From an uncultured Cloacibacterium sp. (lineage in GTDB: Bacteria > Bacteroidota > Bacteroidia > Flavobacteriales > Weeksellaceae), in the NCBI GenBank assembly GCA_964530915.1, contig CAZHCK010000001.1, forward strand, positions 4,012 through 68,011: a DNA stretch of 64,000 bases, written 5' to 3'. Position 1 is the stretch's first letter. Each line of letters begins with the position of its first letter. Below are positions 8,033-24,456 of this stretch, piece after piece. Below the pieces are notes generated by a model that had not been told where the DNA came from, ran no database searches, and was given only the letters and a program-made list of their open reading frames with translations. The position numbers and the translations under genes were made by a program.

Positions 8033-9703
8033 ATGAATATCATTCCCGAAAATCTAAAAAAATACCAGAAATTCATTTCTTTGGTACTCAAATATAGAAA
8101 CAGCGATATTTTATCGGCTGCTTCAGACAAAGCGCTTGATGAATTGGCAGAAGACCAAGAACTTTCTGAAGAATCTAATCGCTATACTTCGCCAGAAGAA
8201 TTGGTAGAAGACCTTAAAAATATGGGGCCGACTTATGTAAAAATCGGGCAAACCCTTTCTACAAGACCAGATTTATTGCCAGAACCTTATTTATTGGCAT
8301 TGGCTTCTCTACAAGATGATGTAGAGGAAATTCCGTATTCTAAAATTCAAAAAATGGTGGAAGAGGAATTGGGAACGAAAATATCCAAAGCTTTTTTGAG
8401 TTTTGACACCCAACCTTTGGCTTCGGCAAGTATTGGGCAGGTTCACAAAGCAGTTTTGCGCTCTGGAAAAGAAGTAGCGGTGAAAATTCAAAGACCGGGA
8501 ATTCGTAAAAACTTCATCGAAGATTTAGACACTTTGAAAGAATTATCAGATCTTGCTGTAAAACATTCTAAAATTGCCAAAAAATACGGAATAGACGATG
8601 TTCTAGATGAGATGAGACACATCCTTATTCACGAGTTGGATTATAGTAGAGAAGCTCAAAATCTGATTGCTCTGGGCAAAAATCTAGAAAAATTTGAGCA
8701 TATTGTGATTCCTCAACCTGTTTTAGACTACTCTACTTCTAAAATTCTGACAATGGATTTTGTAGAAGGTCAAAAAATCACTTCCGTTCATGGAATTCAA
8801 AAAACGGAAACCGATTTTTCGGTGCTCATTGATGAATTGGTAGAAGCTTATCTTCAACAGATTATTTTTGATGGTTTTGCACATGCAGATCCGCATCCTG
8901 GAAATGTACACCTAACCAAAGACCGAAAAATTGCTTTGATGGATTTAGGAATGGTGGCGAAATTCAGTCCGAATTTGCAAGAACAAATCTTGAAATTGCT
9001 CATTGCCATTAGCAAATACAATGGCGAAGAAGTTTCTAAAATACTTCTAGAAATTAGTCAAGATGAAAAAAACGCAGATATTATCGGTTTCAAAAAAGAA
9101 ATCAACCGAATCGTTCTAGATTCTCAGAACAGAAATGCCGCAGAAATGCAAACGGGGAAAATGCTCATCAGAATGAATAAAATTGCCGCAGAAAAAGGAA
9201 TCAGAATTGCGGTAGAACTGAATATTCTTGGTAAAATTTTATTGAATTTAGACCAAATCGTAGCCGTTCTCGCTCCTCAATATGATTTGGCTGAAAGTAT
9301 GAAGCAGATTTTGGAGAAAATGATGGTCAAAAAAATGGCTCACGAAGCCCAACCAGAAAATTTCTTTGCTCAATTGATAGAAACCAAAAAATTAGCCGAA
9401 AATCTTCCGGAAAGACTCAATAAAATCACCGAAAACTTAGCTCAGAATCAGTTTGAGCTCAAAATAGATGCTTTAGACGAAGAACGATTTACCGATGCCT
9501 TCCAAAAAGTAGCCAATAGAATTTCTATTGCACTCATTATTGCTGCATTAATCATTGGCTCATCTCTATTGATGAGGGTTCCTAATTTTCAAATTTTTGG
9601 AATTTCGATAGCGATGTTTTTCTTCATCATTGCATCGGTTTTTGGATTATGGCTCGCTTATAAAATGGTCATGAAAGACGAAGATTTTAAAAGGAAAAAA
9701 TAA
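8033..9703 (+). CDS. ABC1/UbiB/AarF family atypical kinase
   Basis: MGPTYVKIGQ, ASASIGQVH, VAVKIQRPG, HADPHPGN, DLGM; C-terminal TM helices. Confidence 0.9.
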   Translation: MNIIPENLKKYQKFISLVLKYRNSDILSAASDKALDELAEDQELSEESNRYTSPEELVEDLKNMGPTYVKIGQTLSTRPDLLPEPYLLALASLQDDVEEIPYSKIQKMVEEELGTKISKAFLSFDTQPLASASIGQVHKAVLRSGKEVAVKIQRPGIRKNFIEDLDTLKELSDLAVKHSKIAKKYGIDDVLDEMRHILIHELDYSREAQNLIALGKNLEKFEHIVIPQPVLDYSTSKILTMDFVEGQKITSVHGIQKTETDFSVLIDELVEAYLQQIIFDGFAHADPHPGNVHLTKDRKIALMDLGMVAKFSPNLQEQILKLLIAISKYNGEEVSKILLEISQDEKNADIIGFKKEINRIVLDSQNRNAAEMQTGKMLIRMNKIAAEKGIRIAVELNILGKILLNLDQIVAVLAPQYDLAESMKQILEKMMVKKMAHEAQPENFFAQLIETKKLAENLPERLNKITENLAQNQFELKIDALDEERFTDAFQKVANRISIALIIAALIIGSSLLMRVPNFQIFGISIAMFFFIIASVFGLWLAYKMVMKDEDFKRKK

Positions 9704-16427: not shown

Positions 16428-17423
16428 TTATTCTTCATAATTTTTATATGCAATTCTAAGTTTATGCATTATTCTCTTCCTTAACTTAGTAGGTTGAATA
16501 ATTTTAATAGATTCTCCAAAGCCTAATATCACTCTTTCTAATTCAAAATTAATTTGAACAGAGATTTTAAAAACCGTTCCATCTTCTAATTCTTCAATTA
16601 TTTCTTGAGTATGATGAAAAGGTTTTGTTTTTACATATGGAGCATTATTTTTATCAATCCAAAAAATCACATTCATGGGTCTATTCCTTTGAGAAACAGT
16701 AACACCAATTACTTCCTTAAAAAAATGGTCTCCATCAATATTTTTATCGATATACTCTGCATTAATTTTCTCAATACTAATAACTCTATCTAAAGCTAAA
16801 GTAAGATAAGTCATTTCCTCCCATGCAATTAAAAACCATCTGTTATTATATTCTTTCAAAAGTTGAGGATGAATGATATAGTAATTTGTTTCTCTAGCTT
16901 TAAAAGATTTATATTCGATTTTTAAAACATTTTTATTGAGGATAGCATCGTATAAAGTGTCTATAAATTCCAAGCCTTTTAATCTCTCATTTTTGTCTAA
17001 ATGAATAATGGCTTTTTGTTTTGAAGCATAAACAGAATCTTCTAATTTTTGAATTATGCCATTCATTTCCTTAAAAATAGAAAAATCTTTAAATTGTTTT
17101 AAAATTTGTACCGCATCATTCATTACTTTAATATCATTCTCATTTACTGGAATATTCTTAATGCTAAAATCAGGCTCAGAATACTTATAAAATTTTTTTT
17201 GAAAAACTTCAATAGGTGCATTATAACCCAGCTTTTCGCTGCGCATATTCTGAATATCTAACTGAACTGTTCTTTTACTCACTAAATCGTATTTCCCCTC
17301 GTATTCATACAAAGCATCAGAACAAGCGTCTATTAAATCTTCTAAAGTCCAGAGTTTAGTTCTATTTCTTAAGCAATTATCAATGGTTTTATAACGAATT
17401 AAAGCGTTTTTGTTTGAGGACAT
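16428..17423 (-). CDS. WYL-domain transcriptional regulator (HTH-WYL-WCX, PafC-like)
   Basis: MSSNKNALIRYKTIDNCL N-terminus, SKRTVQLDIQNMR HTH, HPQLLKEYNNRWFL, LALDRV, ILGFGESIKIIQP. The start is probably the internal ATG. Confidence 0.92.
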   Translation of the reverse strand: MSSNKNALIRYKTIDNCLRNRTKLWTLEDLIDACSDALYEYEGKYDLVSKRTVQLDIQNMRSEKLGYNAPIEVFQKKFYKYSEPDFSIKNIPVNENDIKVMNDAVQILKQFKDFSIFKEMNGIIQKLEDSVYASKQKAIIHLDKNERLKGLEFIDTLYDAILNKNVLKIEYKSFKARETNYYIIHPQLLKEYNNRWFLIAWEEMTYLTLALDRVISIEKINAEYIDKNIDGDHFFKEVIGVTVSQRNRPMNVIFWIDKNNAPYVKTKPFHHTQEIIEELEDGTVFKISVQINFELERVILGFGESIKIIQPTKLRKRIMHKLRIAYKNYEE

Positions 17424-17446: not shown

Positions 17447-18895
<1,449 letters not shown>

Positions 18896-18924
18896 AATTT
18901 TTTAAAAAAATTAAGATTAATATT

Positions 18925-19024
18925 GGCGCAGTAGCTCAGATGGTAGAGCAACGAATCACTTTTCGCTTTTGGCAAAAAAAGTTCCTAAATAAGTGTGTCA
19001 CAGGTTCGAGTCCTGTCTGCGTCT
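18925..19024 (+). ncRNA. tRNA-like (YrlA/Y-RNA-like) ncRNA with intact acceptor, D and T arms and a 49-nt replacement of the anticodon/variable region
   Basis: Acceptor GGCGCAG/CUGCGUC, U8A9, D arm GCUC-AGAUGGUA-GAGC, T arm ACAGG-UUCGAGU-CCUGU. No 5-bp stem with 7-nt anticodon loop. No encoded CCA. Confidence 0.8.
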
Positions 19025-19028
19025 TTTT

Positions 19029-19204
19029 AAACTGATAAAAAAGTTCCTATATTTGTAACTGTTAAATACTATACTTTTCATCAGTTTAAAAAATAAATAA
19101 AGGCAAAAGGAGTTCCTATTTGACTTTCCACATTTACTCCCCGCTTTTTTATAAATATAGGTAAAAGGAGTTCCTATACATTTTAAAATTTACTCCTCAC
19201 TTAT
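19029..19204 (+). ncRNA. Three tandem stem-loops sharing an (A/G)(A/G)AGU-UCCUA...ACU(U/C)(U/C) motif
   Basis: Hairpins 19029-19087, 19099-19148, 19157-19204; GTTCCTA at 19043, 19112, 19170 (and 18981 in the tRNA-like RNA); outer stems differ in sequence but still pair. Confidence 0.72.
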
Positions 19205-19220
19205 TTTAAATATTTAAACA

Positions 19221-20978
19221 ATGAAAACATTAAAATTATTTTATACAGTTCTCGCAAAAGAATCCGGTGAAAAACCTTTTATTTCTGATGATGGTTTTGT
19301 AATTGACTCAAATGCAATCTGGGCAAAAAAAGAAATCATAAAGTACTTTTCTAAAGAAAAATTAAGCGGAAAAGATCTAAACGCTACCTTTCATAAATCT
19401 TGGAAAACCATAAAATACAGCACTAGAAACCAATTGTTTGTTGAGCAAGTTTTGCATTATATTTCTACATATGGAAGTAATTTTCAAGATGAAATTTATA
19501 TTCCAAATGAAATTTTGAATATTCCTGATGCAAAGCTTTCTTTCAAAGTAATCAAAGGTATTTCTAAAGAAGAAATGATTGAAAAATGCTTGAATTTACT
19601 GAATTCAGGAATCGCACTACAAGAAGAAACAATAGATGATGTATTTTCAATTTTAATAGACGAACTTGATTATAAATTCACTGGAAACGAGAACATTAAG
19701 AATAAGGAAGCCATTGCAAAAATTGCAGATTTATTCCATATCTATCCTGAAAATCCAGTAGAATTTTTCAGATATATCATTTATAAAAGTGCGCAAACTA
19801 CTTTATTAATTAAAAATGATGAAGTGATTTCGGCAATAAAAGAAAGCAAATTCAATCCTTCTCAAGCATTTAAAGATTTTGGATTAGAAAAAATGGCTGA
19901 AATTTTCAACCGATTCAAACCACTTTTTTTGGCTTTCAAAAATAAATGTCCAAAAACCATTAATGCGATTTCAAAATTATCAAAAAAACATCATAAACCT
20001 TTGGTTTCTAATCCATTGAACGATGCTACCAATCAAATTCTTACCGAAAATGATTTGCATTGGTTAGAAAACGCAACTCCATTTGCTTTGTTCAAGGCTT
20101 TATCTGCTTGTTATAATAGAATGAACGGTCAAGATACATTTGCCTACAGAATTAGAAACGGAAAATCTTGGGTACAAAAAGATGTGGTGAAAAATGTAAA
20201 TAAAAAAAATTACGATTTTATTCTACAATTTCTAAAATCTAAATTCGATTTTACAAATCTGAAAATTTACATTCCAGAAGAGGTGAAATATGCATTGCCT
20301 ACTTCCGAAAAAATGTTTGTAGGAAATATCCCAACAGGAAGCAGATTTTATGGCAAAAAATTAGCAATTGGTATTTATTGGGAAGATTCTTGGGGAGCAC
20401 ATGATTTGGATTTATCGGGTCTAAATATTGGTGGGAAAATTGGCTGGAATTCATCCTACAAGCAAGATGAAGGAAACTTAATGTATTCTGGTGATATGAC
20501 TTCGGCTCCAAATGGTGCAGTAGAATATTTGTATGCAAATAAAGGTTTGAACTACCCGACTTTAATTTTAAATAGTATTTACAGTGGAGATTCAAACTGT
20601 GATTACAAAATTATTGTAGGTAAAGGCGAAAAAATTTCTAAAGAATATATGATGAATCCTAATGCAGTTTTTGCTGAAATAAAATGCAAATCCGTGCAAA
20701 GACAAACCGTTCTTGGAATGCTTTTGCCAAAAAACGACAAACAATGTTTTGTTTTGTTGAATTTCGGAGCAGGACAATCCCGAGTTTCTGGAACCAGCAA
20801 ACTTTCTACTTTGGCTACCACTGCTTTGTATCAACAGTGGAACAGACCTCTCACTTTTAATAAATTAGTAAGTGAATTGGGAGCTCATTTGGTTTACTAT
20901 AAAGATGGAGTAGATTATGATTTTTCTTTAGAAAATTTAGAAAAAGATAGTTTTATAAAGCTGTTCCAAAGAAACTAA
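19221..20978 (+). CDS. Large hypothetical protein: helical N-terminal region plus C-terminal TerD-like domain (possible Ro/TROVE-related protein)
   Basis: N-terminal NATFHKSW...EQVLHYISTYG; C-terminal IGIYW...HDLDLS and YSGDMTSAP..AVEY resemble TerD-family motifs. The TROVE relationship is inference. Confidence 0.7.
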   Translation: MKTLKLFYTVLAKESGEKPFISDDGFVIDSNAIWAKKEIIKYFSKEKLSGKDLNATFHKSWKTIKYSTRNQLFVEQVLHYISTYGSNFQDEIYIPNEILNIPDAKLSFKVIKGISKEEMIEKCLNLLNSGIALQEETIDDVFSILIDELDYKFTGNENIKNKEAIAKIADLFHIYPENPVEFFRYIIYKSAQTTLLIKNDEVISAIKESKFNPSQAFKDFGLEKMAEIFNRFKPLFLAFKNKCPKTINAISKLSKKHHKPLVSNPLNDATNQILTENDLHWLENATPFALFKALSACYNRMNGQDTFAYRIRNGKSWVQKDVVKNVNKKNYDFILQFLKSKFDFTNLKIYIPEEVKYALPTSEKMFVGNIPTGSRFYGKKLAIGIYWEDSWGAHDLDLSGLNIGGKIGWNSSYKQDEGNLMYSGDMTSAPNGAVEYLYANKGLNYPTLILNSIYSGDSNCDYKIIVGKGEKISKEYMMNPNAVFAEIKCKSVQRQTVLGMLLPKNDKQCFVLLNFGAGQSRVSGTSKLSTLATTALYQQWNRPLTFNKLVSELGAHLVYYKDGVDYDFSLENLEKDSFIKLFQRN

Positions 20979-21069: not shown

Positions 21070-21095
21070 AAACTCCCGAATTAATTCGGGAGTTT
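21070..21095. terminator. Bidirectional terminator between the islet and pnp
   Basis: aaactcccgaattaattcgggagttt perfect palindrome between convergent genes. Confidence 0.8.
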
Positions 21096-21101
21096 CTATT
21101 T

Positions 21102-23288
21102 TTATGCTTGTTCTGTTGGTTGTTCTCCTTCTGGTTTTGGAGCGTCTCCTTCAGTTCTTGGCTTTTGTTCTGGTCTTGGTGGTCTTGGTAAAAGAACTTT
21201 TCTCGAAAGTCTCATTTTCTTACGATCATCATAACCCATAAATTTCACTTCTACTTCATCACCTTCTGCATACGGAACTTTATCTAATCTCTTCCATTCG
21301 ATTTCTGAGATGTGTAGTAAACCTTCGGTTCCTTTAGCAATCGCTACGAAAGCACCGAAATCCATTACTTTTACTACTTTACCTTTATAAACAGTACCTA
21401 CAACTGGTACGAAAGTAATTTCGTTAATTCTAGCAATTGCAGCATTGATTTTCTCGCGGTCAGTTCCAGAGATTTCAATTCTACCAATTTCGCCCATTTC
21501 TTCAATAGAGATTACAGTATCCGTATCTTTTTGAAGCTGTTGGATAATTTTACCACCAGGTCCAATTACAGCACCTATGAAATCTTTAGAAATTTCTAAA
21601 ATTTCCATTTTCGGAGCGTGAGGTTTCACATCTGCTCTTGGTTTATCGATGGTTTTAAGGATTTCTCCTAAAATATGTAATCTACCTTCTTTTGCTTGAT
21701 TTAGTGCAGTTTCCATGATATCCATTGTCAAACCTTGAATTTTAATATCCATTTGACAAGCGGTAATTCCATCTGCAGAACCTGTTACTTTGAAGTCCAT
21801 ATCACCCAAGTGATCTTCGTCTCCTAAAATATCAGAAAGTACGGTGAATTTACCAGATTTAGGGTCAGTAATTAATCCCATTGCAATACCAGAAACTGGT
21901 TTTGTAATTTGTACACCAGCATCCATCAATGCAAGAGTTCCTGCACAAACAGTAGCCATAGAAGAAGAACCGTTAGATTCTAAAATATCTGAAACTACTC
22001 TGATGGTATAAGGATTTTCGTGAGGAATCATTCCTGCTAAAGCTCTTTGAGCTAAGTTTCCGTGACCAACTTCTCTTCTTGAAGTTCCTCTTAGAGGTCT
22101 TGCTTCACCAGTTGAGAATGGTGGGAAATTATAGTGTAGGAAGAATTTTTCGTCATAATTGATGGCAACAGAATCTACCATGTTGGCATCTTTCACTGAA
22201 CCTAAAGTTACCGCTGTAAGAGACTGAGTTTCACCTCTGGTAAAGATTGCAGAACCGTGAGCTCCTGGTAAATAATCGATTTCTGACCAAATCGGACGAA
22301 TCGTTTTAGGATCTCTACCATCTAATCTGATTCCTTCGTTTAGAATCATTTGACGCATTGCTTCTTTTTCTACATCGTGGTAGTAAATTTTAGCAAATGG
22401 TTCTACGTCTGCTCTTTCTTCTTCTGAATATTGAGAAAGGAATTCTTCTAAAACGGCAGCAAATTTTTCGTGTCTTTCTTCTTTCGCAGAAGGAGTTTTT
22501 GCTACGTTGTAAACTTTATCATAACATTCTGCCCAAACTTTCTCACGAATTTCTTCGTTGTGCGTTTCGTGGCAGTATTCTCTTTTGGTTTGAGATGCAG
22601 GAATTCTCGCTGCTAATCTTTCTTGTGCTTCGATTTGAACTTTAATTTCTTCGTGAGCGTATTTAATCGCTTCTAGCATTTCTGCTTCCGAAATTTCTTT
22701 CATTTCACCTTCTACCATTACGATAGAATCTTTGGTAGCACCTACCATGATATCTAAATCTGCTTTTTTAAGATTTTCGATACTTGGGTTGATAGAAAGT
22801 TCACCATCAATTCTTACTACTCTTACTTCAGACATTGGTCCGTTAAAAGGAATATCTGTAATTGCAATTGCAGCTGAAGCGGCTAAACCAGCTAAAGCTT
22901 CTGGCATTACTTCTTTGTCGTAAGAAATTAGGGAAATCATTACTTGAACTTCTGCGTGGAAATCTTCTGGGAAAAGCGGACGAAGTACTCTGTCTACTAA
23001 TCTCATGGTAAGAACCTCATCATCAGAAGGTTTAGTTTCTCTTCTAAAGAAATTTCCTGGGATTTTACCACCCGCATAGAATTTTTCTCTGTAATCTACT
23101 GTAAGAGGTAAGAAATCTACCCCTGGATTTGCGTCTTTGTTGGCTACAACTGTTGCAAGGAGCATCGTTCCGCCACATTTTACTACTACAGAACCATTAG
23201 CTTGTTTCGCTAATCTTCCTGTTTCAATGGAGACTTCTCTCCCGTCTTTCAATTGAAATTTTTCAATAATTGCTTCTGGAGCATTCAT
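21102..23288 (-). CDS. pnp: Polyribonucleotide nucleotidyltransferase (PNPase)
   Basis: [48 protein letters not shown] (VIGPGGK) and S1 domains. Confidence 0.97.
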
Positions 23289-23385
23289 AAAATTTACTGT
23301 CTTGTGCAATCCGTATTGATTGCGTTATTATTTAAACTCTTTAAATTTTCGATGGCAAAGATACGGAATTTAAAAAAGTTATAAC

Positions 23386-23411
23386 AAAAAAGCAACTCAA
23401 AATTGAGTTGC
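23386..23411. repeat. 26-bp direct repeat (terminator hairpin), copy 1
   Basis: aaaaaagcaactcaaaattgagttgc, identical to 23964-23989. Confidence 0.9.
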
Positions 23412-23414
23412 GTA

Positions 23415-23702
23415 TTACATTTTCTCTTCTGGATTTCTACTGGTATGAAAAATGGAATAAATAATTATTTCCTCATCATGAATTTCAAATAGTATTACAA
23501 AAGGAAATTTTATGATGTACGCTTCTCTTATATTATTAAATCTACATGAAAAATGTTTTGGGTTTTGCTCTATTTTTTCAAAATATTTCTGAAGAACAAT
23601 GAGAAATTTCTTCCCTAAATCTTTAGATTTAGATTCATAATATTCATAAGCATCTTCCATTTCAAAAACTGCTTTATCCCTGAATATTAATTTATATTTC
23701 AT
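23415..23702 (-). CDS. RelE/ParE family type II toxin
   Basis: A..EMEDAYEYYE...LGKKF...IEQNPK.F...REAYIIKFPFVILF..I.IYSIFHTSRNP. Confidence 0.85.
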   Translation of the reverse strand: MKYKLIFRDKAVFEMEDAYEYYESKSKDLGKKFLIVLQKYFEKIEQNPKHFSCRFNNIREAYIIKFPFVILFEIHDEEIIIYSIFHTSRNPEEKM

Positions 23703-23706
23703 GAGA

Positions 23707-23934
23707 TTATTTGGTTTTCTCTTGGATTCGTTTTTTTACTTCGTCATAACTAAAGTATTTTCCTTCTCCGCTTAAATATTCCGCCCTTCTTTCTGCCACA
23801 ATATTGTATTGCTCTTGAGAAATATAGCCTTGTTCCTCGTTTTTGAAAGCTTCTCTCACCTTTTTTAAAACAGATTCACTTTCTGTCTGTAAAAGCAATT
23901 TCATGAGTTCTAATTTTTCTAAACGAATATCCAT
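23707..23934 (-). CDS. Antitoxin (addiction module component)
   Basis: 75 aa directly upstream of the toxin; C-terminal ISQEQ..VAERR.EY..GE....SYDEVKKRI pattern; own TATATTTG promoter just upstream. Confidence 0.8.
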   Translation of the reverse strand: MDIRLEKLELMKLLLQTESESVLKKVREAFKNEEQGYISQEQYNIVAERRAEYLSGEGKYFSYDEVKKRIQEKTK

Positions 23935-23963
23935 TTCTTATAATTTAATATTCAAATATAAAT

Positions 23964-23989
23964 AAAAAAGCAACTCAAAATTGAGTTGC
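23964..23989. repeat. 26-bp direct repeat (rpsO terminator hairpin), copy 2
   Basis: Identical to 23386-23411. Confidence 0.9.
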
Positions 23990-24013
23990 TTTAGATTTTT
24001 TTCTTGAATCTGA

Positions 24014-24283
24014 TTATTTTCTAATACCAAGTTCAGCAATGATAGCTCTGTATCTATTGATGTCTTTGTTTTTAAGATAATCTAACAATCTTTTTCTTTT
24101 ACCTACTAATTTAACTAGAGATTTCTCAGTAGCATAATCTTTGTGGTTTTTCTTTAAGTGACCAGACAAATGGTTAATTCTGAATGTGAATAAAGCGATT
24201 TGTCCTTCTGCAGAACCAGTGTTTGCAGCGTTTCCTCCGTGTTTAGCGAAGATTTCTGATTTTTTTTCTGATGTTAAGTACAT
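24014..24283 (-). CDS. rpsO: 30S ribosomal protein S15
   Basis: NTGSAEGQIALFT..INHL..HL..N.KD...SL.KLVGKRKRLLDYL. Confidence 0.97.
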   Translation of the reverse strand: MYLTSEKKSEIFAKHGGNAANTGSAEGQIALFTFRINHLSGHLKKNHKDYATEKSLVKLVGKRKRLLDYLKNKDINRYRAIIAELGIRK

Positions 24284-24456
24284 GCCAATATTATTTAATG
24301 ATTATTATGTAACGAAGTGCAAAAGTACAACTTTATTTTCAAACCGAAAAATTTATTCTCAGATTCTAGAGACATTCACTTAATAATGTTAACAAATCCT
24401 TAAATTTTATAAATAACTTACTGAAATTCTGCGTAAATTTGCATCATCTTTTTGAT

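What the first reader, a model, noticed from the sequence alone, without database searches (positions are those of the whole stretch)
19029..19204. Array of three hairpins with a conserved GU-UCCUA / UUAC motif resembling the Y-RNA Ro-binding stem
Seen: hairpins 2 and 3 share an outer 6-bp stem, an AAAA/2-nt internal loop, a GGAGU/ACUCC stem and a loop starting UCCUA and ending UUU. Their outer stems differ in sequence (AAAGGC/GCUUUU vs AUAGGU/ACUUAU) yet pair. Hairpin 1 uses AAAAGU/ACUUUU plus UCCUA. Units are 58-69 nt apart with A/U linkers and variable loops. Established: the Ro60 site of Y RNAs is GGUCCGA paired with UUGACU. Inference: GUUCCUA/UUUACU is a variant of that site. The units are either processed small RNAs or multiple autoregulatory binding sites in the leader of the downstream gene. 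Variable loops acting as guides is a more remote option.
Basis: partly seen in the sequence, partly recalled or inferred. Interest (0 to 1): 0.85.

Follow-up and report, generated by a model that had tools for sequence, protein, structure and literature searches.

The report
Protein-partnered hairpin RNA family beside RtcB
The three hairpins are real and, with a fourth copy built into the tRNA look-alike just upstream, belong to an uncatalogued family of small structured RNAs that travels with one uncharacterised ~600-residue protein in bacterial RtcB RNA-repair operons and phage tRNA clusters, much as Y RNAs travel with Ro60, although this protein shows no detectable relation to Ro60.

Summary
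Observation confirmed and extended. Window 19027-19204 holds three hairpins with one module. It has a 6-bp outer stem, a 4-nt/2-nt internal loop (ANAN/YC), and a 5-bp inner stem ending G-C, U-A. The apical loop starts UCCUAU. A fourth, circularly permuted copy replaces the anticodon loop of a tRNA-like RNA at 18925-19024.

The module lies upstream of the 585-aa gene's homolog in 80/80 Bacteroidota loci. It is also near homologs of 28-49% identity in phages and metagenomes. Pairing is kept by compensatory changes (94-96% of cells paired; 0/500 shuffles). All 89 covariance-model hits in independent loci lie on the gene's strand.

In relatives the apical loop carries a permuted tRNA (T arm, capped acceptor hairpin, D arm). 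That is the architecture of bacterial Y RNA YrlA, and Rfam YrlA scores 35.9 bits on one such unit (threshold 69).

The partner protein is not detectably Ro60. It has no TROVE match by Pfam, Foldseek against PDB, or hhalign (0.34%). Its C-terminal domain is TerD-like. The conserved motif GUUCCU differs from the bacterial Rsr site.

Best reading: trans-acting partner RNAs of the 585-aa protein in a WYL-regulated RtcB cassette. The last hairpin probably doubles as a translational operator. No expression or binding data exist.

The parts
16428..17423 (-). WYL-WCX transcription regulator gene, divergent from the operon. The maximal ORF runs to a TTG at 17459. The likely start is the ATG at 17423.
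   Evidence: Pfam WYL 1.2e-10 and WCX 6.1e-12. PADLOC WYL 2.1e-24. Homolog present in the same position in 70/80 loci.
17460..17479 (.). Operator-like palindrome CTACGCAAAtagaaTGCGCA between the regulator gene and rtcB. It is the presumed WYL-regulator binding site and promoter region.
   Evidence: Sequence. Flagged as an inverted repeat. Near-identical palindromes (CTACGCAAAATnATTGCGYAC) precede the RNA array in L016, L076 and L039. Function is inferred.
17519..18895 (+). rtcB, an RNA 3'-phosphate/2',3'-cyclic-phosphate ligase of a divergent phage-like subfamily. The ORF opens at a GTG at 17483. The likely start is the in-frame ATG at 17519.
   Evidence: Pfam RtcB 3.3e-34. phrog_1075 'tRNA splicing ligase' 1.2e-91 over the full length. 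Homolog adjacent in 76/80 loci.
18925..19024 (+). tRNA-like RNA with a 7-bp acceptor stem, D arm and T arm. The anticodon loop is replaced by the module in circularly permuted form.
   Evidence: Rfam tRNA 43.9 bits with a 40-nt insert. ARAGORN forces a 'tRNA-Lys(ttt)' call. The same element was found in at least 64 of the 81 Bacteroidota loci (80 genome loci plus the window). RNAalifold on 21 elements independently predicts the acceptor, D and T stems, the ACUUU/AAAGU stem and a 3-bp cap.
18958..18988 (+). Permuted module inside the tRNA-like RNA: ACUUU-UC-GCU(UUU)GGC-AAAA-AAAGU-UCCUAA. The order is inner-stem 3' strand, 2-nt loop side, capped outer stem, 4-nt loop side, inner-stem 5' strand, then the UCCU junction.
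   Evidence: In L088 it changes to AGUCU...AGACU-UCCUUU, a compensatory change.
19027..19089 (+). Hairpin unit H1. Outer stem UUAAACUGAU/AUCAGUUUAA, 3-nt/2-nt internal loop, inner stem AAAGU/ACUUU, loop UCCUAU...U.
   Evidence: Fold -14.1 kcal/mol, z -4.6. Covariance-model local hit 18.2 bits, E 0.043. Parsed.
19099..19148 (+). Hairpin unit H2. AAAGGC/GCUUUU, AAAA/CC, GGAGU/ACUCC, loop UCCUAU...U.
   Evidence: Covariance model 49.1 bits.
19157..19204 (+). Hairpin unit H3. AUAGGU/ACUUAU, AAAA/UC, GGAGU/ACUCC, loop UCCUAU...U. It is the most conserved unit and ends 16 nt before the start codon, so it is a candidate translational operator.
   Evidence: Covariance model 48.9 bits. The last unit ends 9-19 nt before the ATG in 79/81 loci.
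19221..20978 (+). Gene for the 585-aa protein, the presumed RNA partner. It has a helical N-terminal region with no recognisable relatives and a TerD-like beta-sandwich C-terminal domain.
   Evidence: No hit in Pfam, NCBIfam, PADLOC or PHROGs, nor to PDB sequences. The family has 1360 clusters at 50% identity. AlphaFold2 pLDDT 91.2. No PDB fold match at E<=0.001. In BFVD there are full-length phage matches (E 1e-20) and TerD-like proteins (E 1.9e-5).
21070..21095 (+). Terminator-like hairpin ending the operon, shared with the convergent pnp gene.
   Evidence: Consensus scan: 11-bp stem followed by a T run. This is a pattern match only.

Best explanation
The tRNA-like RNA and hairpins H1-H3 are four members of one family of small structured RNAs. 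They share a protein-binding helical module:
- an outer stem;
- an asymmetric ANAN/YC internal loop;
- a 5-bp inner stem closing with invariant G-C and U-A pairs;
- an unpaired UCCU.

The proposed binding partner is the 585-aa protein encoded immediately downstream. The variable part above the module is a plain loop in H1-H3 and a complete tRNA body in the upstream element. In relatives it can be a permuted mini-tRNA, which would give each ribonucleoprotein a different 'top'.

The set is transcribed with rtcB from a WYL-regulated promoter. It is probably cut apart at the short A/U linkers, and by RNase P at the tRNA-like element. It acts in trans as scaffold or decoy RNAs in the response to RNA (tRNA) damage, by analogy with Ro60-Y RNA particles. 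H3 abuts the start codon and probably also lets free protein repress its own translation.

Shown: the RNA structure, its strand, its conservation, and its genomic coupling to the protein family. Inferred: binding, processing, trans action and autoregulation.
For: Structure.
- 233 parsed units from the 81 Bacteroidota loci (80 genome loci plus the window) share the 4/2 internal loop (227/233) and the UCCUAU start.
- On the collapsed alignment, 94.3% of cells pair, 8/11 pairs show compensatory changes, 0/500 shuffles reach the covariation score, and slid controls give 38-61%.
- An independent set of 86 distinct viral or metagenomic units, found by the model, gives 95.6% paired and 9/11 pairs with double changes. 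The G-C and U-A pairs next to UCCU are invariant in 86/86.

Strand.
- G.U wobble occurs at outer-stem pair 4 in 58 sequences.
- 89/89 model hits are on the gene's strand.
- The scanner finds 134 plus-strand against 14 minus-strand hits in viral loci.

Coupling to the protein.
- The module is upstream of the homolog in 80/80 genome loci, a roughly 330-fold enrichment.
- It is also near the homolog in Synechococcus phages S-CRM01 (35% identity) and S-CBWM1 (29%), in phage Phass-1 (28%), and in every one of seven metagenomic homologs sampled at 33-38% identity.
- In IMG/VR it lies within 600 nt in 17/24 loci at >=50% identity (six of the 24 lack upstream sequence) and in 22/23 loci at 32-49%.

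Trans-acting rather than leader-only.
- Units lie right after the stop codon in L085 and 1.5 kb downstream in L084.
- In S-CBWM1 one unit lies between tRNA genes.
- In Phass-1 six units sit 1.25 kb downstream, after a promoter-like sequence and just upstream of a tmRNA-like sequence.

Y-RNA-like architecture.
- Loops in Flavobacteriaceae and in S-CRM01 hold a T arm, a capped acceptor hairpin and a D arm in YrlA order.
- Rfam YrlA aligns full-length to S-CRM01 unit 2 at 35.9 bits.

RNA-repair context.
- WYL, RtcB and the 585-aa gene co-occur in 67/80 loci, with gene order varying but the RNAs always next to the 585-aa gene.
- An Rnl-type RNA ligase lies two genes upstream in L084.
- tRNA arrays surround the gene in phages.

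Operator idea.
- The last unit ends 9-19 nt before the ATG in 79/81 loci.
Against: - There are no expression, processing or binding data of any kind.
- The link between protein and RNA is genomic co-occurrence only. RtcB, or another factor, could be the binder in Bacteroidota.
- L098 and L099 (63-64% identity) and a roughly 27%-identity gut-phage subgroup show no units within 5 kb.
- H2 and H3 are thermodynamically unremarkable (z -1.5 and -1.9).
- The unit parser required a perfect inner stem, and alignment A7 was fitted to the model, so the pairing percentages lean towards the structure.
- The protein has no recognisable RNA-binding domain.
- The simple loops of H1-H3 carry no conserved feature that would explain a scaffold or decoy role.
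Confidence: 0.6

Rival explanations
1. Purely cis-acting leader. The hairpins are multiple operator sites in the 5' untranslated region, through which the 585-aa protein (or RtcB) controls translation or stability of its own mRNA. They have no trans function.
For: - The array lies directly upstream of the gene in nearly all loci.
- The last unit ends 9-19 nt before the ATG in 79/81 loci, and 12-18 nt before it in S-CRM01, S-CBWM1 and L090.
- Linkers are short and regular.
Against: - Units lie downstream of the gene in L085, L084, L123, L135 and Phass-1, or between tRNA genes.
- Many units carry elaborate tRNA-like bodies, which an operator does not need.
- One copy is embedded in a tRNA-like RNA that RNase P would be expected to excise.
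- Copy number varies from 2 to 6.
Confidence: 0.15
2. RNA antitoxin or decoy array, analogous to type III toxin-antitoxin systems (ToxIN). The 585-aa protein would be an RNA-damaging effector. The tandem RNAs upstream would bind and neutralise it, and RtcB would repair collateral damage.
For: - There is a tandem RNA array immediately upstream of the protein gene.
- It is linked to RNA ligases that reseal endonuclease products.
- The cassette sits at different chromosomal sites in different genomes: pnp and fhs neighbours are seen in 0/80 loci.
- The system is frequent in phages.
Against: - The units are diverged and covarying, not the near-identical repeats typical of ToxI (knowledge of ToxIN).
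- No nuclease fold or motif was detected in the protein.
- The tRNA-mimic tops are unexplained by this model.
- No PADLOC match.
Confidence: 0.1
3. Processing substrates. The module marks sites where the RNAs are cut and rejoined by RtcB, for example to circularise or mature permuted tRNA-like RNAs. This would resemble permuted tRNA genes that mature through a circular intermediate.
For: - Both permuted and non-permuted versions of the same tRNA-plus-module topology exist.
- RtcB is adjacent.
- The YrlA literature raises this possibility for permuted tRNA mimics (bioRxiv 10.1101/312249).
Against: - The window-like RtcB was not found in any of the 78 viral loci that carry the protein.
- No splicing-type endonuclease is evident.
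- The internal loops do not form a bulge-helix-bulge motif.
- The simple hairpins H1-H3 have no tRNA part to mature.
Confidence: 0.07
4. One reading: genuine Y RNAs whose stem is a variant Ro60/Rsr binding site, bound by a Ro60 ortholog.
For: - GUUCCUA matches metazoan GGUCCGA at 5 of 7 positions.
- Some relatives have YrlA-like architecture.
- The context is an RtcB operon.
Against: - No TROVE protein lies in the cassette in any of the 80 loci examined.
- The coupled protein has no detectable relation to Ro60.
- The bacterial Rsr motif GNCGAAN0-1G is absent.
- Rfam YrlA scores 15.8 bits in the window and gives no hit in L071, against a threshold of 69 bits.
- Adjacency to pnp is not conserved.
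Confidence: 0.03
5. DNA-level elements (repeated regulator binding sites or iterons), or simple transcription terminators or attenuators.
For: - Direct repeats lie in an intergenic region next to a regulator gene.
- U-rich tracts follow H2 and H3.
Against: - Pairing is maintained by compensatory changes and by strand-specific G.U pairs.
- The strand bias is complete.
- A separate palindrome fits the regulator's operator.
- The stems are AU-rich, and most were not picked up by the terminator scan.
Confidence: 0.03

Closest known systems
Bacterial Y RNAs (YrlA/YrlB, Rfam RF02553) with Ro60/Rsr, as in the Salmonella rsr-yrlBA-rtcBA operon
   Same: - Several small RNAs are encoded next to the gene of a large protein, in an operon with RtcB.
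- A basal stem carries a short conserved motif on its 5' strand.
- The apical 'effector' module in some members is a circularly permuted tRNA, in the order T arm, loop-capped acceptor stem, D arm.
- More than one RNA per locus is made from one precursor (PMC4201824; bioRxiv 10.1101/312249).
- Rfam YrlA aligns end-to-end with S-CRM01 unit 2 at 35.9 bits.
   Different: - The partner protein has no TROVE or vWA domains and no detectable similarity to Ro60. It ends in a TerD-like domain instead.
- The conserved motif is GU-UCCU with an ANAN/YC internal loop, not GNCGAAN0-1G.
- Most units, including H1-H3 of the window, have no tRNA-like part.
- One member is a non-permuted tRNA body with an open acceptor stem.
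- All scores are below the Rfam threshold.
- The regulator is a WYL protein, not RtcR.
tRNA (Rfam RF00005) and tRNA-like RNAs
   Same: The element at 18925-19024 has a 7-bp acceptor stem, a D arm with GG, and a canonical T arm GGUUCGAGUCC. It passes the Rfam tRNA threshold at 43.9 bits.
   Different: It has no anticodon loop. A 40-nt extension carrying the module takes its place. The ARAGORN call of tRNA-Lys(ttt) is an artefact of forcing a fit. It cannot decode.
Type III toxin-antitoxin systems (ToxIN-like)
   Same: A tandem array of structured RNA units lies immediately upstream of a protein gene, and the protein is expected to bind them.
   Different: - The units here are diverged and covarying rather than near-identical repeats.
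- The protein is about 600 aa with no nuclease signature.
- Units also occur downstream of the gene or apart from it.
- Some units have tRNA-mimic tops.
Circularly permuted tRNA genes (red alga Cyanidioschyzon merolae), cited in the YrlA literature
   Same: The 3' half of the tRNA precedes the 5' half, the acceptor stem is closed by a loop, and the ends pair in an extended anticodon-side stem.
   Different: There is no evidence here of excision or ligation to a functional tRNA. No anticodon loop is encoded. No splicing endonuclease is present.

Membership tests
Y RNA / YrlA (Rfam RF02553, RF00019) | Scores at or above the Rfam gathering threshold (69 bits for YrlA) | tested here: not met
   Window 18978-19065 scores 15.8 bits, E 1.5. 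No hit in L071. No hit at gathering threshold in eight loci. The best relative, S-CRM01 unit 2, scores 35.9 bits.
Y RNA / YrlA (Rfam RF02553, RF00019) | Encoded next to, and bound by, a Ro60/Rsr (TROVE-domain) protein | tested here: not met
   Adjacent proteins are RtcB, a WYL regulator and a 585-aa protein without TROVE. Foldseek against PDB gives no match at E<=0.001. hhalign of the family against a 25-sequence TROVE alignment gives 0.34% probability. Binding itself is not testable with these tools.
Y RNA / YrlA (Rfam RF02553, RF00019) | Conserved Ro-binding motif in the 5' strand of the basal stem (GNCGAAN0-1G in bacteria, GGUCCGA in animals) | tested here: not met
   The motif here is RRAGU-UCCUAU. 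It matches the animal motif at 5/7 positions and does not match the bacterial motif.
Y RNA / YrlA (Rfam RF02553, RF00019) | Apical domain mimicking tRNA in permuted order (T arm, capped acceptor stem, D arm) | tested here: inconclusive
   Met in relatives: Flavobacteriaceae units and S-CRM01 units 2 and 5. Not met in H1-H3 of the window. The window's tRNA-like element is not permuted.
Y RNA / YrlA (Rfam RF02553, RF00019) | Genomic linkage to an RtcB RNA-repair operon (seen in Salmonella and others, but not universal) | tested here: met
   RtcB is adjacent in 76/80 Bacteroidota loci. The window-like RtcB was not found in any of the 78 viral loci.
tRNA (RF00005) | Cloverleaf with acceptor, D, anticodon and T arms, and a 7-nt anticodon loop | tested here: not met
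   Acceptor, D and T arms are present at 43.9 bits. The anticodon loop is replaced by a 40-nt insert. The consensus fold shows the module stem there instead.
Ro60 / TROVE protein family (for the 585-aa protein) | TROVE (HEAT-repeat ring) plus vWA domains | tested here: not met
   No match to Pfam PF05731 or PF25045 in 50 family members at E<=1, whereas true Ro orthologs carry both. hhalign 0.34%. No PDB fold hit.
TerD domain (for the C-terminal part of the 585-aa protein) | TerD-type beta-sandwich fold | tested here: inconclusive
   Foldseek against BFVD matches TerD-like phage proteins over about 190 columns (E 1.9e-5, probability 1.00), and the top full-length hit is named 'tellurium resistant like'. 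Pfam TerD does not match, and no PDB TerD structure appeared among the listed hits. The DLDLS...SGD...E motifs resemble TerD calcium sites; that comparison is from memory and was not tested.
Type III toxin-antitoxin (ToxIN-like) | Near-identical tandem RNA repeats upstream of a small endoribonuclease toxin gene | tested here: not met
   The units differ in stem sequences, with compensatory changes. The protein is 585 aa with no nuclease or defence-system match. Toxicity was not testable.

The most novel reading that the evidence does not exclude
This would be a second Y-RNA-type ribonucleoprotein system with no detectable relation to Ro60. A ~600-aa protein, with an unrecognised N-terminal fold and a TerD-like domain, binds a GU-UCCU stem module shared by a diversified set of RNAs. 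These RNAs are plain hairpins, permuted mini-tRNAs and full tRNA bodies without an anticodon. The system is widespread in phage tRNA-gene islands and in WYL-regulated RtcB cassettes of Bacteroidota. There the tRNA mimics would act as decoys or scaffolds that protect or repair the tRNA pool during RNA-targeted conflict.
Probability: 0.45. Interest if true: 0.9.

Novelty: new variant of a known kind. Interest (0 to 1): 0.8.

Why it matters
- Y RNAs and Ro60 are the only well-known case of a protein that carries a family of small RNAs, each with a common binding stem and a variable top that can mimic tRNA. What such particles do in bacteria is still unclear.
- Here the same RNA design recurs with an apparently unrelated protein of unknown function. 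The family has 1360 clusters at 50% identity and no entry in Pfam, NCBIfam, PHROGs or PADLOC.
- It appears in two settings that both point to tRNA damage and repair: RtcB operons under a WYL regulator, and the tRNA gene clusters of large phages.
- This gives a testable function to a large 'hypothetical protein' family.
- It adds an RNA family that Rfam 15 does not detect.
- It flags a class of 'tRNA' annotations that cannot decode.
- It offers an independent system for asking why tRNA mimicry is coupled to RNA repair.
- One caveat applies. A 2016 comparative-genomics survey of RNA repair systems (Burroughs and Aravind, PMC5062991) could not be read here, so earlier mention of this cassette cannot be excluded.

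Tried and rejected
- **Rfam:** no family other than tRNA reaches threshold in the window or in eight related loci. The permissive scan of 18850-19260 gave only noise plus YrlA at 15.8 bits.
- **Ro60 hypothesis for the protein:** rejected by Pfam, PDB sequence search, Foldseek against PDB and hhalign against a TROVE alignment seeded from mycobacteriophage ET08 gp220.
- **First structure prediction:** the shallow alignment gave pLDDT 54.6, which was unusable. It was redone with 50 diverse sequences and reached pLDDT 91.2.
- **PNPase link:** pnp is convergent in the window but adjacent in 0/80 related loci, so the adjacency looks coincidental.
- **Internal promoter TATATTTG:** the TAnnTTTG pattern at that position occurs in 10/233 units, and in different units of the array, so it is not conserved. 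The sigma-70-type scan found no excess (10 found against 15.8 expected), but that scan does not model Bacteroidota promoters.
- **Anticodon-loop mimicry by UUCCUAU** (U33, CCU, A37): rejected, because the base after UCCU varies (A, U, G or C) in distant units.
- **T-loop reading of GUUCCUA:** rejected, because G and U are paired with AC in all units.
- **SD-like AAGGAG in H2 and H3:** not conserved in other units.
- **Other AGTTCCTA copies in the window:** all nine lie inside coding regions without the module.
- **Viral-contig scan with the 50-sequence alignment:** failed for lack of a conserved stretch. A 12-sequence alignment worked.
- **Literature:** nine searches found no description of this RNA-protein pair. 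PMC5062991 is not held.
Full report
**1. What is in the window**

Between the end of an RtcB gene (ORF 17483-18895) and a 585-aa ORF (19221-20978) lie 325 nt of non-coding sequence.
- H1 is at 19027-19089, H2 at 19099-19148 and H3 at 19157-19204.
- Each has an outer stem, an A-rich internal loop opposite two pyrimidines, an inner stem ending ...AGU/ACU..., and a loop that begins UCCUAU and ends in U.
- The repeat finder shows four copies of GGCAAAAAAAGTTCCTA-like sequence, not three, spaced 62, 69 and 58 nt apart.
- The first copy lies inside an element at 18925-19024 that Rfam scores as tRNA at 43.9 bits. That element has 40 nt where the anticodon loop should be.
- ARAGORN forces this element into 'tRNA-Lys(ttt)'.
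- Folding energies alone are modest for H2 and H3, with z-scores of -1.5 and -1.9. The case therefore rests on comparison with other loci.

**2. The locus**
- Upstream and divergent is a WYL-WCX regulator (PADLOC WYL).
- A palindrome, CTACGCAAAtagaaTGCGCA at 17460-17479, sits between it and rtcB.
- Near-identical palindromes precede the RNA array in Kordia and Aquimarina loci.
- RtcB here is closest to a phage family, phrog_1075, at 1e-91.
- A terminator-like hairpin follows the 585-aa gene.
- The convergent pnp gene and the S15 leader beyond it are housekeeping neighbours. Neither pnp nor fhs is adjacent in any of 80 related loci.

**3. Conservation**
- The 585-aa protein has 1894 word-indexed homologs, and 1360 representative clusters at 50% identity.
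- I fetched 80 genome loci, mostly Chryseobacterium, plus Kordia, Aquimarina, Algibacter and Winogradskyella, at 65-71% protein identity.
- All 80 have 2-5 copies of GTTCCTA in the 420 nt upstream of the gene.
- Parsing gave 233 hairpin units. Of these, 227 have exactly a 4-nt/2-nt internal loop, and most loops start UCCUAUA and end in U.
- Inner stems are GGAGU/ACUCC, AAAGU/ACUUU, AGAGU/ACUCU, GGUGU/ACACC, AACGU/ACGUU and AGCGU/ACGCU.
- Outer stems include UAAGGC/GCCUUU, AUAGGU/ACUUAU, ACUGAC/GUUAGU, AAAGAC/GUCUUU and UGAAAC/GUUUCA.
- On a collapsed 40-column alignment, 94.3% of cells pair and 8 of 11 pairs show changes on both sides. No shuffle out of 500 reaches the covariation score, and sliding the partner drops pairing to 38-61%.
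- G.U at outer-stem pair 4 in 58 sequences points to RNA from the + strand.
- One caveat: the parser demanded a perfect inner stem, so that helix's 100% pairing is partly by construction. The alternation of G-C with A-U, and the fixed geometry, are not.
- A strict scanner finds 245 modules in 49.8 kb of upstream zones against 26 in 1.74 Mb elsewhere.

**4. The tRNA-like element carries the same module, circularly permuted**
- In at least 64 of the 81 Bacteroidota loci (80 genome loci plus the window), the stretch after the D arm reads ...AUU-ACUUU-YC-GC(loop)GGC-ANAN-AAAGU-UCCUNU....
- In order, this is the inner-stem 3' strand, the 2-nt loop side, a capped outer stem, the 4-nt loop side, the inner-stem 5' strand, and then UCCU leading back into the tRNA body.
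- RNAalifold was given 21 such elements without guidance. It predicts the acceptor, D and T stems, this ACUUU/AAAGU stem and the 3-bp cap.
- A phage-like contig, L088, has two such elements with AGUCU/AGACU-UCCUUU. This is a compensatory change that even flips the otherwise invariant G-C pair.

**5. The top of the module is variable and is often a tRNA mimic**
- In Flavobacteriaceae loci, some units read AGAGU-UCCUAU-AU-[ACUGG UUCGAUU CCAGU]-[ACUC GAAA GAGU]-AUGUGGUUUGUUUU-ACUCU. This is a T arm, a GNRA-capped hairpin and a GG-containing D-like stretch.
- In cyanophage S-CRM01, one unit holds a complete permuted tRNA: a T arm, a 9-bp acceptor stem capped by UUCG, and a D arm UAGCUCAGUUGGUAGAGC.
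- This is the order described for YrlA, namely AC stem, T, acceptor stem-loop, D, AC stem (bioRxiv 10.1101/312249; PMC4201824).
- The Rfam YrlA model aligns to that S-CRM01 unit end-to-end at 35.9 bits. E is 2.9e-6 in that small search, and the threshold is 69 bits.

**6. The RNA travels with the protein over large distances**
- tblastn against phage genomes finds homologs in Synechococcus phages S-CRM01 (35% identity) and S-CBWM1 (29%), and in gut phage Phass-1 (28%).
- S-CRM01 has five units directly upstream of g174 and one just downstream, and the gene sits in the middle of the phage's tRNA array.
- S-CBWM1 has one unit 12 nt before the gene and one between tRNA genes.
- Phass-1 has six tandem units 1.25 kb downstream of the gene. 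They lie after a promoter-like sequence and directly upstream of a tmRNA-like sequence.
- All seven metagenomic homologs sampled (33-38% identity) have units:
  - L083 has three upstream.
  - L084 has two, 1.5 kb downstream, with an Rnl-type RNA ligase two genes upstream.
  - L085 has four right after the stop codon.
  - L086 has three with the variant GU-CCCUUA.
  - L087 has four.
  - L088 has two tRNA-like carriers.
  - L090 has two, inside a tRNA array.
- In 78 IMG/VR loci, units lie within 600 nt of the gene in 17/24 loci at >=50% identity (six of the 24 lack upstream sequence) and in 22/23 loci at 32-49%. They do so in only 7/31 loci below 32%.
- The roughly 27%-identity gut-phage subgroup has none by this definition. 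Neither do L098 or L099.
- 24 of the 47 loci at >=32% identity have three or more tRNA genes within 5 kb. None has the window-like RtcB or the WYL gene.
- A covariance model trained only on Bacteroidota units finds 89 hits at E<=0.1 in 448 kb of these independent loci, all on the gene's strand.
- Their alignment shows 95.6% pairing and 9/11 pairs with double changes. G-C and U-A next to UCCU are invariant in 86/86. This alignment is fitted to the model, so it leans towards the structure.

**7. The protein**
- No Pfam, NCBIfam, PADLOC or PHROGs family matches it or 50 diverse relatives.
- A profile search of PDB sequences finds nothing.
- With a 50-sequence alignment, AlphaFold2 gives pLDDT 91.2. 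The N-terminal ~340 residues are mainly helical and the C-terminal part is a beta-sandwich.
- Foldseek finds no PDB structure at E<=0.001.
- In BFVD it matches full-length phage proteins at E 1e-20 to 2e-13. It also matches TerD-like proteins over the C-terminal ~190 residues at E about 1e-5.
- To test Ro60 directly, I took the Ro-like protein of mycobacteriophage ET08 and collected TROVE+vWA orthologs. I then ran hhalign against the family profile. The probability was 0.34%.
- The partner is therefore not a recognisable Ro60.

**8. Interpretation**
- Shown: this is a structured RNA module on the coding strand. It is deeply conserved and covarying, and it is tied to one protein family. Its apical part ranges from a plain loop to a full tRNA mimic.
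- Shown: in Bacteroidota it lies in a WYL-RtcB cassette, and in phages it lies in tRNA islands.
- Inferred: the protein binds the module, and the RNAs are released from the operon transcript. Linkers are mostly 7-11 nt, and the tRNA-like element should attract RNase P.
- Inferred: the RNAs act in trans as scaffolds or decoys in the response to tRNA/RNA damage, as proposed for YrlA (PMC7790460).
- Inferred: the last unit ends 9-19 nt from the start codon in 79/81 loci and is the most conserved in sequence. It plausibly serves as a feedback operator.
- A purely cis-regulatory role is contradicted by loci where the units lie downstream of the gene or are separately promoted.
- A ToxIN-like antitoxin role, and a role as RtcB processing substrates, remain possible but have less support.

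**9. Relation to the known**
- The system works like Ro60-Y RNA but fails the membership tests for it. There is no TROVE protein, no Rsr motif, and scores are below the Rfam threshold.
- The 5/7 match of GUUCCUA to GGUCCGA may be chance.
- UCCU is unpaired here, and only the G-C and U-A pairs correspond to the Y RNA helix.
- I found no description of this pair in the held literature.
- The most relevant survey (PMC5062991) could not be read, so the novelty claim carries that caveat.

Noticed in passing
window 18933-19024: ARAGORN annotates the tRNA-like element as tRNA-Lys(ttt). The anticodon loop is in fact replaced by a 40-nt module-bearing extension, so genome annotations probably list these elements as tRNA or pseudo-tRNA.
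   Followed up: yes
window 21102-24327 (- strand): There is a pnp gene (PNPase; RNase_PH x2, KH and S1 domains) and, further on, an S15-Flavobacteria leader at 24281-24327 (51.6 bits). This is the housekeeping rpsO-pnp unit. The adjacency of pnp to the cassette is tempting because PNPase partners with Ro/Y RNA, but it is seen in 0/80 related loci.
   Followed up: yes
window 17460-17479; L016, L076, L039 upstream regions: A conserved palindrome, CTACGCAAA-N5-TGCGCA (or TTGCGTA), lies next to the WYL regulator gene. It is a likely operator. In Flavobacteriaceae loci it sits about 45-90 nt before the first RNA unit.
   Followed up: partly
L071 798-2539; L090 8918-9706: R2K-clade ATP-grasp genes (PF14243, PF18299) recur near the system, both in a Winogradskyella chromosome locus and in a phage-like contig.
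   Followed up: no
L092 (phage Phass-1) about 8470-8990: The six-unit RNA array is followed directly by a tmRNA-like sequence (GGGCCCGUCAGGUUUCGACGGGG ... GGUUCGAUUCCCGCCGGGUCCACCA). The record does not annotate it in that stretch.
   Followed up: no
L052 1350-3360; L039 9363-10503; L071 109-336: Large tRNA gene arrays, with up to about 17 tRNA-model matches in L052, lie beside the cassette in Flavobacteriaceae chromosomes. This mirrors the phage context and hints that the cassette sits in mobile tRNA islands there. L052 also has a Flavo-1 RNA at 9512-9587.
   Followed up: partly
L142-L170 (IMG/VR, human-gut jumbo-phage contigs): A subgroup at about 27% identity lacks the first ~54 residues of the protein and shows no module within 5 kb. 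It may use a different RNA, a variant motif, or none.
   Followed up: partly
L088 6691-7191; ET08 locus L091 1565-1939: Peptidyl-tRNA hydrolase genes lie near the system in a phage contig, and near the tRNA array of the Ro-encoding mycobacteriophage ET08. This is another shared feature of phage tRNA islands.
   Followed up: no
window 1399, 4794, 18102, 25173, 27008, 33856, 38937, 50998, 51689: Nine further AGTTCCTA octamers lie inside coding regions. The total in the window is 13 against 1.8 expected. None has the module around it. The excess may reflect codon or dipeptide usage.
   Followed up: partly
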